From: the human T2T-CHM13v2.0 reference genome, Homo sapiens
Reading direction: 5' to 3' (one strand)
Assembly (NCBI RefSeq): GCF_009914755.1
Contig: NC_060933.1
Length of the DNA stretch: 64,000 bases
Position numbers and translations under genes: made by a program. The notes beneath the pieces were generated by a model, which saw only the letters and a program-made list of their open reading frames with translations, did not search any database and was not told the DNA's origin. Positions 52,713-59,627 of this stretch are shown piece after piece; position 1 is the stretch's first letter; each line of letters starts with the position of its first letter.

Positions 52713-55700
52713 AATCAAAGTTAAGTTTTCTTCGGTTTAAAGTAACTTGTTATAATTATGTTGTTTAGCCTCATGGTAACCAGAAAACAAAAATCAACAG
52801 ACACTCTAAACATAAAAAGCAAGGAATTAAAACACTACCAGAAAAAATTACTTCACTACAAATAAAGACAGGAAGAAAGGCAAAGAGGAAAGAGAAGAAA
52901 TAAAAAGAGATCAGAAAGAAAAGAGGAAGGGAGAAAGAACAAAAGAAAAAGTAGCAAAACAATCAAGAAAGTAAAAAATGGCAGTAGTATGTTTTTATCT
53001 ATAATAATCTTGAATGTAAATTAAATTAAGACAGAGTGGCTGAATGGATTAAAAGACCCAATTATGTCCTGCCTACAAGGAACTCAGTTCACCTATAAAG
53101 ACATACACAGACAAAGTCAAGGGATGATAAGAGATCTTCCATACAAACGGAAACAAAAAAAGCAGGAGTAGCTATACTTAGATAAAATAGCCTTTAACTC
53201 AAAAAAAGAAAAAATAAAGATAATTATATAATGAGAAACAAGTAAACAGCCGTTAAGTGCATATGCAACCAACACTCAAGCACCTAAATATAGATGCAAA
53301 TATTAACAGGCTTTAAAGGACAGAGGGACTGCAATACAATAATAGAGTACCTCAACACTCCACCGTAATCAACACCCCACTATCGCGAACGGACAGATCA
53401 TCCAGACAACAAAACATCATCAGTTAAACTGTACTCTATACAGAATGGACCTAACAGACATTTACACAGCTTTTCACTGTGCAACTGCACAATGCTCATT
53501 CTACTGAGTGGCACATCGATTATTCTACAGGGCAGACTGTGTTAGGCCAAAAAACAAGTCACAACACTTTTTTTTTTTTTGAGGTGGAGTCTCTCTCTGT
53601 CTCCCAGGCTGGAGTGCAGTGGCACTATCTCGGCTCACTGCAAGCTCCGCCTCCCGGGTTGACGCCATTCTCCTGCTTCAGCCTCCGGAGGAGCCGGCCA
53701 CCACGCCCGGCTAATTTTTTGTATTTTTAGTAGAGACGGAGTTTCACCGTGTTAGCCAGGATGGTCTCGATCTCCTGACCTCGTGATCCCGCCTCGGTCA
53801 CCCAACACATTTTTAAAAACTGAATTCATATCAAGTATCTTTTCTGACCACAGTCGAATAGTATTAGAAATCAGTAACAGATAGAACTTTAAAAACTGTA
53901 CAAATACATGGAAATTAAAATACACGCTCATGAACAACCAATAAAAGAAATGAAAAAAATACAAGGGAAATTAAATATTTATTGAAACAAGTAAGAATAG
54001 AAACACAACATAAATCCTGTGGGATGCACCAAAGGCAATTCTAAGAGGAAAAGTGTATAGTTATAAATGCCTGCATCAGAAAAGTAGGAAGATCTCAAAT
54101 AGCCTGACAGTACACCTCCAGTAATGAGAAAAACAAGAACAATCAAATGCTAGAATTCGCAGAAAAAATACCATAAAGATTAGAGAAGAAATTTTAAAAA
54201 TAGAAACAAAAAATACAAAAAGTCAATGAAACAAAAGCTGGAGTATTTTAAAAAAAAATCAAAATTGACGAGTTTTAACTAGATGAACTTAGATAAAAAG
54301 AAAACAAAGTCATAAAGAAGGCATTACAACTGGTAACCCAGAAATACGAAGCATTAAAAGATTACTAAAAACATCACAAACAAATTGAAAAATCTGGAAG
54401 TGAATACATTTCTAGACACATAACGAATTCCCAAGATAGAATGATAAAAAATAAAAATAACCTGAACAGACCAATAATGAGGAATGCAATAAAGCAGTCA
54501 TAAAAAGTCTCCTGGCAAAGAAAAACACAAGAATCATGGTTTTCCTGCTGAATTACCAAACATTTTTAAAATAGCTAATATCTATTTTACTCAAAATATT
54601 CCCCATAAAATGAAGAGGAAGAAAGGCTTCAAAACTTGTTCTATGAGGACAGCATGACCCTGGTACAAAAACCAGACCAGAACACAACACAAAAAGGAAA
54701 CCACAGGCAAATATCCCTCATGAACAGAGGTGTAAGAAATCCTCAGCAAAATACTTGAAAATTGCATTTGACAATGCAATAAAAAGATCATCTGCCATGA
54801 TCAAGTGGATTTCATTCAACCCAGGAATATGAGGATGATTCAATAAACACAAATAAATATGCAACATCACATTCAGCAAATCAACAACAAAAACCATATA
54901 ATCATTTCAGTAGACGCTGAAAAAAATAAAAGTCAACATTCCTTCATGATAAAAACTCAACAACATGAGTACAGAAGACACATATCTCAGTGCAATAAAG
55001 GCCATATATGACAAACCCACAGCTAACATAATCAATAAGGAAAAGTTAAAAGCTCTTCTCCTCTAAGATCTGGAACAAGTGTGGCTACTTTTACACCACT
55101 TTTGTTCATCATAATACTGGAAGTCCTAGCTAGAGCAATTAGGAGAATGCAATAAAAGGCATCCAAATTGGAAAAAAGGAGTCAAATTGTCTGTTTCCAG
55201 GTGACATGAACATATATAGAGAGAACCCTAAAGATTCCACAAAAAACCTACTAGAAATAATAAATTAGTCAAGTTCCAAGATACAGTATCAAAATATAAA
55301 AATGAATACTACACCCATGCACCAATAGTGAAATATCTAAGAAAGAAATCGAGAAAGCTATTTCATTACCAAAAAAATGATATCTAGGAATAAACTTAAC
55401 CAAAAAGGCAAGAGATCCCAAAATGAAAACTTCATAAAACATAGATGAAAGATACTAAAGCAGACACAAGTAAATGGAAAGATATCCCATCTCTATGCAC
55501 TAGAAGAATGTTAAAATATGTGTATCACCCAATGTGATCTACAGAATCAATGCAATCCGTGTTCAATTACAAGACATTCTTCATTGAAATAGAAAAATAA
55601 TCTCAAAATTCACATGGAAGTTCAAAATACCTCAGATAGACAAAAGAATCTGGAATAAAAAGAAAAGCTGGAGGCATCACACTACCTGATTTCAAAATAT

Positions 55701-56314
55701 ACTACAAATTTATAGTAAGGATGGTACTATCAAAACAGTATGGTACTCTCAATAAAAGGGGCGGGGGAGAGACAAGAGAGATGAACGAATGAGACAGACA
55801 GACATAGACAAGTGAAACAGAATAGAGAAATCATAAATAAATTCACGCGTTTACGGTCAATTCATTTTTAACAAAGGCCCCAAGAACACACCTTCGGGAA
55901 GGACAATCTCTTCAATAAACTGTACTAGGAAAACCCAACACCCACATGTACAAGAATACATCTAGGCCATTACCTTACCATATACAAAAATCTACTCAAA
56001 ATAAAGATTTAAATACAGGACCTGAAACTATGAAACTACCAGAGAAGAAAACATAGGATAAATGCTTCATGAAATTGGTTAGGACAAGGAATTTTCAAAT
56101 AGACATCAAAAGCACAAGCAACAAAAGCAAAGATGTAATTACATTAAACTTAAAACCTTTTCCAAAGCAGAGGAAGCAATCAGCATAATGAAGACAGAAC
56201 CCGAGAATGGAAGAAAGTCTTTGCAGCTATGCATCAGGCAAGAGGTTAATACACAAAATATCTAAAGAACTCAAACTACTCAAAAGTGAAAATACAAATA
56301 ATCTTATTTTTAAA
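52713..56314 (+). mobile_element. Old degenerate L1 (L1M/L1MA-type) spanning endonuclease to late ORF2
   Basis: L1 motifs: gagtggctgaatggatt, gcaggagtagctatactta, gacaaacccacagctaacat, ctggaggcatcacactacctga; many frameshifts. Confidence 0.85.
53568..53797 (-). mobile_element. AluY, 5'-truncated with internal deletion, inserted in L1
   Basis: caagctccgcctcccggg, gttagccaggatggtctcgatc; caacac(a)tttt on both flanks. Confidence 0.88.
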
Positions 56315-57550
56315 AATCTACCCAAAACTTTTGTCCCCCACCATTTCCCCACCTTCTTTTCCCGACCGCATTTCGCCCTCTCCCTCTCACCACCCTTTCT
56401 CTTCCTCCATCTACCCCCAAACGTTTTCACCGTTTTCTCCCCACCATCATTTCGTTTTCTCCCCGCCCCGCCCCCGTCATTTCGCAAAGCCTTCTCTATT
56501 CTCCCGCTCACCACGCTTTTCCCCAACCATCTACCCAAACACTTTCTCCCGTTTTTTCCCACCGTGTTTTCCCCCTTCTCCCTGGCCACCCTCTTTTTTC
56601 CCCCTCCTGCTGTCATCATGCCCTTTTCCTCCTCCATCTAAGCAAAAACATTTTCCCCCCGTCTTTTCCCAAAGCCTTTTCCCTACTCCTGCTGCTCACC
56701 ACCCTCTTTTCCCCCTTTATCTACCCAAAAACTGTTTTCCTCATTGTCTTTCCTCCTGCTCCTCCTTGCCACTCTTTCCCTTCTCCATCTACCCAAAAAC
56801 ATTTCCCCACCATCTTTTCTCAAAGCCTTCTCCCCAATCCTGCTCACCTCTCTCTTCCCCCCATCTACCCCCCAAAATTTCCCCATCTTTTCACAAAGTC
56901 TGCCCCCTCTTCCCACTCGTCCTCTTCTCTCCCCTATCCTGCTTGCCACCCTTTTTTTTGCCCTGCATCTATCCCAAACTATTTTCCCGTCTTTTTCCCA
57001 CCCTTCTTTCCCTGCTCCCTTCTCGCCACCCTCCTTTCTCCTCCTCGTCACCCTCTTTCCCTCCTCCATCTACCCAAACACGTTTTACCTACCGTCTTTT
57101 CACCACCATCTTTCTTTTCTGCCACTGTTTTTTCGCAAAACCTTGTCTTCCTCCCGCTAGTTACCCTCTTTTTCCTTCTCCCACTTGCTATCTTCTTCTG
57201 CTCCTCTATCTACCCAAAAACTTCTCTCCCCACTGTCTTTTCACAAAACCCTCTCTCCCTACTGCTAGCCCATTTCCCCCACCTCACCACTCTCTCCTCT
57301 CCCCAATTGCCACCATCTTTTCCCCCTTCATCCACCCATAAACTTTCTATCCACCGTCTTTCTGCAAAACCTTCCCTCACTCCCGCTCCACACCCTGTCT
57401 TTCCACCTCCATCTACCCAAAACCTTTTTTCCCCACCATCTTTTCCCCATCGTCTTTTTGCAACGCCTTCTCCTCCTCGCTATCCTTTTTTCCCTTTGGC
57501 AATAACCAGACTCTTTACCCACCCCTCTATCTATCCCAAAACTATTTTCC
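56315..57550. repeat. CT-rich degenerate tandem array, ~13 units anchored on (c)atctacccaaaaac
   Basis: Anchors near 56317, 56409, 56529, 56635, 56719, 56786, 56862, 56966, 57067, 57208, 57328, 57410, 57529; plus strand is nearly G-free. Confidence 0.85.
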
Positions 57551-57557
57551 TCTTCCT

Positions 57558-57700
57558 ACCCCTCCAGCCGCGCTGCAATCGCAATCTCCACTGCCACCAC
57601 CAACCATAGTGAGGCGAGCTGCGCCGCTGTGCCGTGTCTCAAGCCTCCAGCATATGGCCGGTGACTCCTTTTCCTGGTCCTCTAAGCTGGGCACTGAGCA
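57558..57700 (-). repeat. ACRO1-like satellite unit (left arm)
   Basis: Reverse complement aligns to 58140-58275 (atgctggaggct..cctc.ct...g.tggtggtg.ca...gaga); ACRO1 name from recall. Confidence 0.55.
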
Positions 57701-57751
57701 GCTCAACAGTAAAACACCGAACCCTAAAAAAAAAAAAACCGTAACACCTTT

Positions 57752-57954
57752 TCAGCATCATTTATATACGGAGGTTATGCGCATGCCGGTTCCTAGACTT
57801 CATGTTCTGATTGCATGAGAGCAAGTCTTAAGATAACCAATCACAGCATGAAAATAAAGTCCAATCAGAGTAGGCCTAGAGGTTTTTCTCTCATCCAATC
57901 AGAACATGTAGTCCAGGATCCGTAACTTCAGTATATAAAGCATGCTGAGGAAGT
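57752..57954. promoter_or_regulatory. Candidate symmetric bidirectional TATA/CCAAT promoter
   Basis: TATATAAA on minus (57761-57768) and plus (57932-57939); CCAAT at 57837, 57861, 57895; NRF1-like tgcgcatgc at 57778; ETS-like ggaagt at 57949. Activity not shown. Confidence 0.6.
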
Positions 57955-58042
57955 GGTGCGTCATTTTTGGGTCTTCTGTGTCGGTGTGCTCAGCTGCTAG
58001 GTACCTGGGTTAGAGAACTAGAAGGGTCCATTAGTTTTCACC

Positions 58043-58275
58043 CGCTGGAGCCTGGAGCCTGGAGCCTGGGGCGCTGCCTCCCTGTTGGTGGTGTTGGTGA
58101 CGGAGCGGTAGGAGGGAGGCTAGCAGCGGGAGCTTCTCCTGCCGGGCTGGAAGACGAGGAGAAGGAAGAGACACCGCTGCATGCTGGAGGCTGGAGCCAG
58201 AGCCTACGCCTCCGTGGCTTACCTCGCTGCAGCTGGTGGTGACATCAGAGACCACAGCTCGGCTACAGTGGTAGC
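58043..58275 (+). repeat. ACRO1-like satellite, ~1.5 units (right arm)
   Basis: gctggag motif recurs at ~140-160 bp period, consistent with the 147-bp ACRO1 unit; name from recall. Confidence 0.55.
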
Positions 58276-58280
58276 AATGT

Positions 58281-58358
58281 GGTTGCAGTGAGCCAAGATT
58301 GCATCACTGCTCTGCAGCCTGGCGACAGAGCAAGACACCATCTTAAAAAAAAAAAAAT
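58281..58358 (+). mobile_element. Alu 3' fragment
   Basis: ggttgcagtgagccaagatt...(A)14 directly after the ACRO1-like unit. Confidence 0.85.
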
Positions 58359-59627
58359 TGACCACAGTGTTTTGCATCTGTTTCAGAAAAACAAATGATA
58401 CCATTATTTAATATGCTGCAGTAACTAGAAGCCTACTTATAAAGTTGGTGGCAAATAAGTCATTGGTATATGTTAACTTCCTATAATCACTTACATGTTC
58501 CTAAGAGTCACTTTGTGTATTTATATAAGAAGGTCAGCATGTAAATGATTATAGAGAAACTTTTTGTTGAAAAGTAAGAAAGCTTGTCTCCCTTTTCCTA
58601 GTTATGAAGGAACCACCACCACAACAAAATAAAGCATACACTTTGTTTATAACCCTGAATCATGATTTATGGCCAGATTATCCTAGCATCCAACTGCCTA
58701 CCTTGGCATTTATCAGTTGAAATGAGTCCAGAGAAAGAATTTATAACAATAAGAATAACTGTTAGAATGCCAGTCCTATCAAGAAATGTTAGAAATATAT
58801 AAGCAAAACTCAAAAGTAAATATCACTGTTTGTCTAACCATATTCCATGCATAGCTTCTACTAGTGTTCCCCAGAATTGTCTGTTTTATCATTTCTCTTG
58901 ACTTTTGATACTTTTATTCATATATTCTCCATCCTCACTTAGTCCTTACTGTTTGTACTTCGGCATCATATCAACCCTATCTTGCCACTTAAAAGACAAA
59001 GTAATACTACTTTTTCAGTTTTTTTTCATTTAATGTAAGAAGTTATCATTTCCCCAATAGTGAAATGATGCAAAATGATTATTTCATGTATTGTCCAAAT
59101 GGGTTCAGGTTTGTGACAGTCTCAAACGCATCAGGGAGTAGGGACACCCTTCAGTTAAAGCACCAAGTTGTATTTTAATCTGTATTTTATTTTTAAAAAA
59201 GATTTTTTCTCAATATCACATAAACATTAAGCTTTTTATTTTACCTCTCTATTTACTTATTTACACGATTTAAGATTGAACATTTTTCGTTATCAAAAAT
59301 ATTTTCATAATATGTGTAAAATTGTTGAAATCTTAATTTTTCCAAAATGACAGCTGACTCCTCTTAAAGGTAATGGGAATCTTAGAATGTTATTTGCAAG
59401 TCAGTCTACAGCATTATTTTCATACATAAAATGTTGTGTACTAATTTTTGAAATATTTGTAAATTAAATAGGTCATTTTTCTTTCAGGAGAAAGGAGACT
59501 TTGAGAGATTTTTGTGCAGGAGAAGAGTAGTTTTAAAAATAGGTAGTTTGCAATAGGGCAGACTAGTTTTAAAATTCTAAAATGAGAACAAGTCAATAAG
59601 AGTCTCTTGATTAAATCTAGTGATCTT

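What the first reader, a model, noticed from the sequence alone, without database searches (positions are those of the whole stretch)
57558..58275. ~720-bp imperfect palindrome forming a mirror-image bidirectional promoter with satellite arms
Seen: reverse complement of 57752-57821 (ctctcatgcaatcagaacatgaagtctaggaacc..cataacctccgtatataaatgatgctga) matches 57888-57948 (ctctcatccaatcagaacatgtagtccaggatccgtaacttcagtatataaagcatgctga). Symmetry continues outward (gagctgctcagtgcccagcttagaggacca vs cagctgctaggtacctgggttagagaacta) into ACRO1-like units on each side. The 66-bp spacer has two more CCAAT boxes, and the TATATAAA boxes face outward ~170 bp apart, like divergent histone H2A/H2B promoters. 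Inference: an inverted duplication of a TATA/NF-Y promoter plus first exon, meaning the 'satellite' could be a transcribed leader and the unit a portable promoter cassette.
Basis: partly seen in the sequence, partly recalled or inferred. Interest (0 to 1): 0.8.

Follow-up and report, generated by a model that had tools for sequence, protein, structure and literature searches.

The report
REP522 repeat with two-way promoter core
The palindrome is real, but it is one copy of the known human repeat REP522, whose centre is a two-way TATA/CCAAT promoter, and one half of this copy already serves as the annotated start of the LOC642929 transcript.

Summary
The inverted repeat is real. RC(57558-57855) against 57856-58281 scores 63, against 18.7±2.1 in 300 shuffles. 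It is one of at least 52 related places in the genome.

The family fits REP522, described in print as ~1.8 kb, largely palindromic and enriched among cancer-activated CAGE promoters. It is tied to REP522 through miR-5701.

The family core has an outward TATA box, three CTGATTGG boxes, three CCAATCAG boxes and a second outward TATA box. The window copy lost two left boxes in a 51-bp deletion, and its third reads ATTGC.

The left half works. The RefSeq start of LOC642929 (57738, minus strand) lies 30 nt past the TATA box, and exon 1 ends at a GT donor. The right half keeps its TATA box and three CCAAT boxes. It is cut at 58282/58283 by an Alu fragment and has no annotated transcript.

Across 28 non-redundant copies the inner core is 0.88 identical, against 0.65-0.72 for the arms.

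The flanking C/T-rich array lies on the left only and shows no regular tandem period, so "ACRO1-like" is not supported.

The kind is already known. Interest is modest.

The parts
56250..57555 (-). C/T-rich, strongly strand-asymmetric block of degenerate 80-150-bp units. It is the left part of the repeat unit and lies in intron 1 of LOC642929.
   Evidence: GC skew is -0.7 to -0.85. Direct-repeat families D1-D11 have irregular spacing. TRF finds no regular array. The block is collinear with other copies at 75-81% identity.
57560..57738 (-). Left-arm leader, which is exon 1 of LOC642929 (NR_027472.2). A GT donor follows at 57559-57558 on the minus strand.
   Evidence: Hub gene table and the sequence. 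It mirrors the right arm.
57761..57768 (-). TATA box facing left (TATATAAA on the minus strand), 30 nt upstream of the annotated start at 57738.
   Evidence: and the hub table. Exact in 15 of 28 non-redundant copies.
57799..57800 (.). Site of a 51-bp deletion that removed left CCAAT boxes 1 and 2. It lies between direct repeats of the box context.
   Evidence: Alignment. Shared by L001 and L006 and also seen in L030. The core alignment starts at core position 71-72 in L001-L006.
57810..57814 (-). The remaining left box, degenerate (ATTGC instead of ATTGG).
   Evidence: The relative L006 keeps ATTGG.
57837..57899 (+). Three intact CCAAT boxes at 57837-41, 57861-65 and 57895-99 in CCAATCAC/CCAATCAG context.
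   Evidence: Intact in 22, 27 and 26 of 28 copies.
57932..57939 (+). TATA box facing right. An initiator-like TCATTTT lies at 57961-57967 (A at 57963, 31 nt downstream).
   Evidence: TATA is exact in 15 of 28 copies. GTCATT is shared by most of the 15 copies shown. The initiator consensus itself is textbook knowledge, not a call.
57962..58282 (+). Right-arm leader (putative, not annotated). The mirror of the left donor is at 58269-58270 (CAGTG|GTAGCA). The stronger family donor further out is lost.
   Evidence: L006, L013, L016 and L024 continue past this point with a TAG|GTGAGT-type donor. The window does not.
58271..58357 (+). Alu 3' fragment with an A13 tail that replaces the family's continuation. 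The junction is at 58282/58283.
   Evidence: Homology to all dispersed copies ends at 58274-58287. Calling it Alu rests on my recall of the Alu 3' end.

Best explanation
Window 56250-58282 is one copy of the human repeat REP522. RepeatMasker classes it as 'Satellite/telo', and it is described in print as an unclassified, largely palindromic interspersed repeat of about 1.8 kb.

Its centre is an old inverted duplication that forms a self-contained divergent RNA polymerase II promoter. A cluster of consensus CCAAT boxes, probably bound by NF-Y, sits between two outward-facing TATA boxes. There are three boxes per half in the family. This copy has three on the right and one degenerate box on the left. 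Each TATA box is followed by a GC-rich leader that ends in a GT splice donor. Wherever the repeat is duplicated, it can therefore supply a promoter and a first exon to whatever exons lie downstream.

In this window the minus-strand half does this for LOC642929. The start is at 57738, exon 1 is 57560-57738, and it splices to GTF2I-pseudogene exons.

The plus-strand half keeps its TATA box, an initiator-like site and all three CCAAT boxes. Its leader is truncated at 58282/58283 and no transcript is annotated, so I rate activity in that direction as possible but unproven.

Shown here: the anatomy, the family, the conservation pattern and the fit to the annotated start. Inferred: NF-Y binding, plus-strand activity, and the RepeatMasker name.
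For: Family and name:
- I count 40 distinct places, 10 more and 2 more, giving at least 52. They lie on chromosomes 2, 5, 7, 9, 10, 13, 14, 15, 17, 18, 20, 21 and 22, mostly near centromeres.
- REP522 is described as about 1.8 kb, largely palindromic, and strongly enriched among the most cancer-activated FANTOM5 CAGE promoters (meeting abstract in PMC4896275, passage seen).
- A preprint says hsa-miR-5701 overlaps the Rep522 repeat (passage).
- Primers for miR-5701 are printed in another preprint. The 13-nt primer end occurs 22 times in the genome. Of the 14 hits I examined, only the two on chromosome 15 continue as the second primer requires. Both lie in the central palindrome of copies of this family.

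Anatomy:
- Alignments give the layout of TATA, three boxes, three boxes, TATA. Box spacings are 33, 24, 27, 24 and 34. TATA to TATA is 236 bp in the family and 164 nt here.

Promoter use:
- The RefSeq start at 57738(-) lies 30 nt from the TATA box, and a GT donor sits at the exon end (hub table).
- Other papers, passages only: REP522 is enriched in lncRNA exons. REP522 leads to cancer-specific lncRNAs, citing Horie 2017. REP522 RNA rises at the 8-cell stage. The REP522 region at BAGE is silenced by H3K9me3 in liver and active in Tc1 mouse.

Conservation in 28 non-redundant copies (12 near-duplicates dropped from 40):
- Inner core 0.884 identical, against 0.649 for the left arm and 0.723 for the right arm.
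- Without CpG-prone columns: 0.890 against 0.676 and 0.777.
- Core divergence is below arm divergence in 370 of 378 pairs. The ratio of means is 0.41.
- CCAAT pentamer columns 0.949 against 0.871 for other core columns.

Age of the inverted duplication:
- Left against left 0.834 and right against right 0.850.
- Left(rc) against right is 0.773 within a copy and 0.773 between copies, in 24 copies. So the duplication predates dispersal and the arms do not correct each other.
Against: - No RepeatMasker, Dfam or Repbase library was available, so the name REP522 rests on an indirect chain. That chain includes my recalled knowledge that the miR-5701 genes lie on chromosome 15.
- No transcription or binding data could be examined. 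NF-Y binding is inferred from motifs only.
- In this copy the left half has no intact CCAAT box of its own, and exact TATA boxes survive in only 15 of 28 copies on each side.
- No plus-strand transcript is annotated, and the right leader has lost the stronger family donor.
- The palindrome is about 0.7 kb of a unit of about 2 kb, so 'largely palindromic' fits only loosely. In L016 the G-rich right extension is not the reverse complement of the C/T-rich array (score 22 against 22.4 in shuffles).
- The copy pairs used for the conservation figures are phylogenetically dependent, and the arms align less reliably than the core.
Confidence: 0.85

Rival explanations
1. The palindrome is only structural. 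It would be a cruciform-prone junction or breakpoint of pericentromeric segmental duplications, and the TATA and CCAAT strings would be incidental.
For: - The copies lie in duplication-rich regions.
- This copy ends exactly at a junction with an Alu fragment.
- Intact copies fold into a very stable DNA hairpin: L013 at -48.1 kcal/mol, z -13.3.
Against: - The annotated start sits 30 nt from the TATA box, with a splice donor at the arm's end (hub table).
- The CCAAT columns are the best-kept columns (0.949).
- The arms do not homogenise each other (0.773 within and between copies).
- The hairpin is half-destroyed here (-24 kcal/mol, z -5.9), yet the copy is still an annotated promoter.
- CAGE promoters are reported in the family.
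Confidence: 0.05
2. It is a MITE-like non-autonomous DNA transposon. The arms would be terminal inverted repeats, and the roughly 300-bp 'core-only' matches would be the mobile unit.
For: - The element has a palindromic shape.
- Several matches on chromosomes 22, 10, 13 and 5 covered only about 270-370 bp around the core at standard settings.
Against: - With more sensitive settings, 5 of the 8 'short' copies (L055, L056, L057, L059, L060) align collinearly with L016 over 1.1-2.1 kb at about 61-65%. L053 and L058 matched only the C/T array among the rows shown, and L054 aligned over about 0.6 kb.
- All copies share the same left/right asymmetry.
- The unit carries a one-sided C/T array.
- I did not search formally for target-site duplications.
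Confidence: 0.03
3. The core descends from a real divergent histone H2A/H2B gene-pair promoter. That promoter would have been captured and amplified.
For: - The layout is similar: outward TATA boxes 164-236 bp apart with several CCAAT boxes between them.
- A younger subfamily carries an octamer-like ATTTGCAT just upstream of the right TATA box. That position is typical of H2B promoters, which is my recalled knowledge.
Against: - Whole-genome searches with the 718-bp element and with the 196-bp core returned only family copies, with none on chromosome 6 or chromosome 1. Only the best candidates are scored, so this is weak evidence.
- The octamer is absent from the older copies, and its bin is only 0.72 identical.
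- No histone-coding sequence flanks the core.
Confidence: 0.04
4. The locus is a microRNA precursor of the mir-5701 type, and the palindrome is kept for its RNA hairpin.
For: - The central palindrome of the chromosome 15 copies carries the sequence implied by the miR-5701 primers.
- 18 of the first 30 loci carry a version with 2-3 mismatches.
Against: - In the window and its chromosome 9 relatives the 51-bp deletion removes the 5' part of that site. There is no match within 3 mismatches in L001-L006.
- No Rfam family reached its threshold. The sub-threshold hits are to plant miRNA models and a bacterial leader, which are generic hairpin matches.
- Conservation extends well beyond a miRNA stem and peaks on the CCAAT boxes.
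Confidence: 0.02

Closest known systems
REP522 (Repbase/RepeatMasker; 'Satellite/telo'; unclassified interspersed repeat)
   Same: - The unit is about 2 kb, against the published figure of about 1.8 kb, with a palindromic centre.
- It is multicopy and lies mostly near centromeres and on acrocentric short arms.
- It carries promoters. CAGE promoters are reported for the family, and there is an annotated start here.
- The core of the family hosts the miR-5701 hairpin, which is reported to overlap Rep522.
   Different: - This copy has a 51-bp deletion in the left half-core and one mutated box.
- It lacks the 8-10 bp that hold the octamer-like site.
- It is truncated on the right at 58282/58283.
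- I could not run the consensus comparison that would formally name it.
Divergent histone H2A/H2B promoters
   Same: Two outward TATA boxes lie a few hundred bp apart and share a central cluster of CCAAT boxes. This is a working likeness.
   Different: - No sequence similarity to histone loci was found.
- It drives non-coding or chimeric leaders rather than histone genes.
- It is a dispersed repeat, not a single-copy intergenic region.
LTR12-type and other repeat-borne NF-Y/TATA promoters that supply alternative first exons (recalled from the literature, not from a call)
   Same: A repeat carries CCAAT boxes and a TATA box and donates a promoter and first exon to nearby genes. It is often silenced in soma and active in germline, embryo and cancer.
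   Different: REP522 is not an LTR, is palindromic and can fire both ways. It spreads with segmental duplications rather than by retrotransposition, as far as the shared flanks show.
ACRO1 satellite
   Same: Both are repeats near centromeres and on acrocentric arms, and both are transcribed in early embryos.
   Different: ACRO1 is described as a 147-bp tandem satellite. The C/T-rich block here has irregular 81-148-bp spacing and no TRF array, and it is an integral part of the REP522-like unit.

Membership tests
REP522 | Match to the Repbase/Dfam REP522 consensus | not testable with these tools
   No repeat library is on hand, and Rfam holds no such model. There is only an indirect link through miR-5701.
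REP522 | Unit of about 1.8 kb that is largely palindromic | tested here: met
   The unit is 56250-58282, about 2.0 kb. The palindrome spans about 720 bp and scores 63 against 18.7 +/- 2.1 in shuffles. The outer parts are not mirror images (L016), so the fit is loose.
REP522 | Dispersed multicopy family in pericentromeric or subtelomeric regions | tested here: met
   At least 52 places on 13 chromosomes. This is a lower bound, because only the best candidates are scored.
REP522 | Carries transcription start sites | tested here: met
   The RefSeq NR_027472.2 start at 57738(-) lies 30 nt from the left TATA box (hub table). For the family, only the passage was seen. The primary paper is not held.
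Divergent (bidirectional) Pol II promoter | Two outward-facing core promoters less than 1 kb apart with shared upstream elements | tested here: met
   TATA boxes at 57761-57768(-) and 57932-57939(+), with CCAAT boxes between them.
Divergent (bidirectional) Pol II promoter | Initiation on both strands | not testable with these tools
   The minus strand is annotated. For the plus strand there is no annotation and no CAGE or PRO-seq data here.
Histone H2A/H2B intergenic promoter (descent) | Sequence homology to histone gene-pair promoters or flanking histone genes | tested here: not met
   No hit outside the family. The search is not exhaustive.
ACRO1 satellite | Tandem array with a 147-bp period | tested here: not met
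   TRF finds only short 7-22-bp repeats in 54000-59000. Unit spacing is 81-148 bp and irregular.
ACRO1 satellite | Similarity to the ACRO1 consensus | not testable with these tools
MITE / DNA transposon | Sharp symmetric termini with target-site duplications | tested here: inconclusive
   Of the 8 'short' copies, 5 prove to be diverged collinear copies of 1.1-2.1 kb. I made no formal search for target-site duplications.
mir-5701 precursor | Hairpin that carries the mature sequence | tested here: not met
   The window and L002-L006 have no match within 3 mismatches, because the deletion removes part of the site. The feature is met in L073 and L074.

The most novel reading that the evidence does not exclude
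The roughly 180-bp six-box CCAAT core of REP522 may be held by purifying selection in dozens of dispersed copies, and may not simply be decaying like a satellite.

In the copies on chromosomes 22, 10 and 13 that are most diverged from the window, non-CpG arm divergence from the window copy is 0.31-0.43, while the core differs by only 0.08-0.11.

REP522 would then be a host-maintained, NF-Y-dependent divergent promoter module. It would switch on in the 8-cell embryo, the germline and cancer. It would also seed first exons for pericentromeric chimeric genes such as LOC642929.
Probability: 0.3. Interest if true: 0.55.

Novelty: already known. Interest (0 to 1): 0.3.

Why it matters
The main result is housekeeping. 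An eye-catching palindrome turns out to be a copy of a catalogued repeat whose promoter activity is already in print, and one arm of it is the annotated promoter of a RefSeq transcript.

Two things go slightly further. I did not find either in the passages I could read.
- The explicit layout of the core: three plus three consensus CCAAT boxes between outward TATA boxes, each followed by a leader and a donor.
- The core diverges about 2.5 times more slowly than its arms across copies, even after CpG-prone sites are removed.

If that slower divergence reflects selection, REP522 would be a reusable two-way promoter. That would help explain how newly duplicated pericentromeric gene fragments become transcribed.

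Tried and rejected
- Rfam gave only sub-threshold hits to plant miRNA models, a bacterial Phe leader and others on the central hairpin of other copies. I rejected these as generic hairpin matches.
- The primary REP522/CAGE paper (Kaczkowski 2016) could not be read by DOI, PubMed id or a guessed PMC id. A guessed PMC id for the T2T repeat paper also failed. Whether these papers already show bidirectional starts or the box layout therefore stays open.
- 'HSREP522' gave 0 papers. A search for BAGE / TPTE / bidirectional promoter gave nothing useful.
- The gastric-cancer miR-5701 paper and the TLR paper print no sequence in their main text.
- TRF on 54000-59000 found no array that explains the C/T block.
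- Mirror symmetry beyond the roughly 0.7-kb palindrome was tested in L016 and rejected (22 against 22.4).
- The idea of MITE-like solo cores lost most of its support once sensitive alignment showed 5 of 8 short matches to be old, long collinear copies.
- The promoter/terminator scan tool covers bacterial sigma-70 sites only, so I did not use it.

Full report
**1. Observation**

The repeat finder gives two arm pairs:
- 57787-57824 / 57885-57922: 38 nt, 87% complementary.
- 57732-57777 / 57923-57968: 46 nt, 74% complementary.

A gapped alignment of the reverse complement of the left side against the right side joins these pairs.

I ran 300 dinucleotide-preserving shuffles for each control:
- The whole palindrome scores 63 against 18.7 ± 2.1, maximum 27.
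- The outer arms alone (57558-57700 against 57985-58281) score 35 against 19.0 ± 2.6, maximum 28.

The palindrome is therefore real and about 720 bp long. The right arm carries about 160 extra G-rich bases.

Motif positions are as follows:
- TATA boxes at 57761-57768 (minus strand) and 57932-57939 (plus strand).
- CCAAT boxes at 57837, 57861 and 57895.
- A degenerate left-arm box, ATTGC, at 57810-57814.

**2. It is a repeat family**

A search of the window's own genome with 57558-58275 gave 143 matched pieces. By my hand count these fall in 40 places:
- Four near-identical chromosome 9 copies at 96-98%.
- chr9:106.72 Mb at 84%.
- chr2:95.45 Mb at 85%.
- Many copies at 70-77% on chromosomes 2, 7, 9, 13, 14, 15, 17, 20, 21 and 22, with fragments on chromosomes 10 and 18.

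A second search with the 196-bp core of a chromosome 15 copy added 10 places, including chromosomes 5 and 18 and acrocentric short arms. A pattern search added two more on chromosome 15. The total is at least 52, and it is a lower bound because only the best candidates are scored.

In the dispersed copies, homology to the window runs from the C/T-rich block on the left through the palindrome to 58274-58287. The repeat unit is therefore the C/T-rich block plus the palindrome, about 2 kb here (56250-58282; composition).

**3. Name**

- A meeting abstract describes REP522 as about 1.8 kb, largely palindromic and an unclassified interspersed repeat. It says REP522 is strongly enriched among the most cancer-activated FANTOM5 CAGE promoters (PMC4896275, passage).
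- RepeatMasker lists REP522 as Satellite/telo (PMC4240582, passage).
- A preprint states that hsa-miR-5701 overlaps the Rep522 repeat (passage).

The link to miR-5701 was tested as follows:
- Another preprint prints miR-5701 primers.
- The 13-nt end of one primer occurs 22 times in the genome.
- Of the 14 sites I fetched, only the two on chromosome 15 continue as the second primer requires.
- Both sit in the central palindrome of copies that align to this family. They match the window core at 83% over 146 bp and L013 at 69% over 631 bp.

I could not run RepeatMasker, so the name is an inference. I rate it at about 0.85-0.9.

**4. Anatomy of the family and of this copy**

Alignments of 15 copies and 28 non-redundant copies give this core layout:
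- A left-facing TATA box.
- Three CTGATTGG boxes.
- Three CCAATCAG-type boxes.
- A right-facing TATA box.

The 28 copies come from 40 fetched, after 12 near-duplicates were dropped. Box spacings are 33, 24, 27, 24 and 34 bp, and the TATA boxes lie 236 bp apart.

The window copy and L006 have a 51-bp deletion between direct repeats of the box context. L002-L005 appear to share it, because their core alignments start at the same position. L030 has the same gap. The deletion removes left boxes 1 and 2. The remaining left box reads ATTGC in the window and ATTGG in L006.

They are the inner right-hand boxes whose left partners were deleted.

The window also lacks a short segment upstream of the right TATA box. 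In a younger subfamily that segment reads as an octamer-like site.

The central DNA hairpin is correspondingly weaker here: -24 kcal/mol (z -5.9) against -48.1 (z -13.3) in L013.

**5. Leaders and donors**

The left arm 57560-57738 is exon 1 of LOC642929 (hub table). The start at 57738 lies 30 nt from the TATA box. The exon ends at a GT at 57559-57558 on the minus strand. The C/T-rich block follows directly and is therefore intronic.

The mirror of that donor exists in the right arm at 58269-58270. In L006, L013, L016 and L024 the right arm continues into a stronger donor of the TAG|GTGAGT type. In the window that continuation is replaced at 58282/58283 by an Alu 3' fragment with an A13 tail.

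L006 (chr9:106.72 Mb) is 89% identical to the window over 2.3 kb, shares the deletion, and keeps the right continuation. It looks like the source lineage of the pericentromeric chromosome 9 copies.

**6. Conservation**

Mean pairwise identity in the 28 copies is:

| Region | All columns | Without CpG-prone columns |
|---|---|---|
| Inner core | 0.884 | 0.890 |
| Left arm | 0.649 | 0.676 |
| Right arm | 0.723 | 0.777 |
| End of the C/T array | 0.659 | 0.676 |

- Core divergence is below arm divergence in 370 of 378 pairs. The ratio of means is 0.41, Spearman correlation 0.55 and slope 0.31.
- Within the core, CCAAT pentamer columns are 0.949 identical against 0.871 for the rest.
- Each box is intact in 22-27 of 28 copies. 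Exact TATA octamers survive in only 15 of 28 on each side.
- Five of the eight copies that matched only around the core at standard settings align collinearly over 1.1-2.1 kb at about 61-65% with more sensitive settings. Their cores are 86-89% identical to the chromosome 15 core.

Three caveats apply. The pairs are not independent. The arms align less reliably. I cannot separate selection from a local low mutation rate.

**7. Age of the inverted duplication**

In 24 copies with all six boxes:
- Left halves are 0.834 identical to each other.
- Right halves are 0.850 identical to each other.
- A left half reverse-complemented against a right half is 0.773, whether from the same copy or from another copy.

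The duplication therefore predates the spread of the family, and the arms do not correct each other.

**8. What is not symmetric**

The C/T-rich block lies on the left only. In other copies the right flank is G-rich (skew +0.35 to +0.45) and is shared for at least 1.5 kb at 76-89%. In L016 it is not the reverse complement of the C/T array (22 against 22.4 ± 2.5).

TRF finds no regular array. ACRO1 is described as a 147-bp tandem satellite. 'ACRO1-like arms on both sides' is therefore not supported.

**9. Mechanism**

The best-supported reading is a self-contained divergent Pol II promoter carried by a repeat. A cluster of consensus CCAAT boxes would recruit NF-Y, which is my inference from the motif. 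The cluster would serve two outward TATA-driven core promoters, each with a leader and a donor.

Here the minus half drives LOC642929. The plus half is structurally competent up to its truncation, but no transcript is annotated for it.

Published passages fit a promoter that is usually silenced and is active in embryo and cancer.

**10. Verdict**

- The kind is already known.
- The layout of the core and its slow divergence are small additions that need checking against the papers I could not read.

Noticed in passing
window 56250-57555: A 1.3-kb block that is C/T-rich on the plus strand (GC skew -0.7 to -0.85). It is built of degenerate units sharing a CATCTACCCAAAAAC-like motif at irregular 81-148-bp spacing. 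It is collinear in most family copies and forms the start of LOC642929 intron 1.
   Followed up: partly
window 58271-58357: A fragment that looks like an Alu 3' end, with an A13 tail, sits exactly where the family homology stops (58282/58283). About 10 nt resemble both sequences, which suggests a recombination junction rather than a clean insertion.
   Followed up: partly
L006 (G000 chr9:106.72 Mb): A non-pericentromeric relative that is 89% identical to the window over 2.3 kb. It has the same 51-bp core deletion but an intact right-arm continuation and an intact ATTGG box. It is the likely source lineage of the five pericentromeric chromosome 9 copies. Its A-run at the start site is expanded to about 36 nt.
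   Followed up: partly
L008, L013, L014, L016, L021, L023, L029 (right of the palindrome): Dispersed copies share at least 1.5 kb of G-rich sequence to the right of the palindrome at 76-89% identity. It has repeated GGGCTGCACTGCC-like units. It is not a mirror of the left array. Whether it is part of REP522 or a separate duplicon is open.
   Followed up: partly
L053-L060 (chr22 21.07, 22.54, 25.14, 32.59 and 32.82 Mb; chr10 37.77; chr13 23.16; chr5 179.39): Old copies whose non-CpG arm divergence from the window copy is 0.26-0.43 while core divergence is only 0.08-0.11. Their cores are 86-89% identical to the chromosome 15 core. This is the strongest sign of constraint on the CCAAT cluster.
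   Followed up: partly
L073 and L074 (G000 chr15:18.86 and 19.73 Mb): The only two of 14 examined genome hits that carry the full sequence implied by the miR-5701 primers. It lies in left box 3 of the REP522-like core, so the 3' part of the mature miRNA overlaps a CCAAT box.
   Followed up: yes
window 57779-57786: An NRF1-like GCGCATGC lies between the left TATA box and the boxes. Of the 15 copies shown, only L001, L006 and L007 carry it, so it is not a family feature.
   Followed up: partly
L024 (G000 chr17:22.76 Mb): In this copy the left half-core, from just inside the TATA box to box 2, is replaced by unrelated G-rich sequence. This is a second, independent loss of the left boxes.
   Followed up: no
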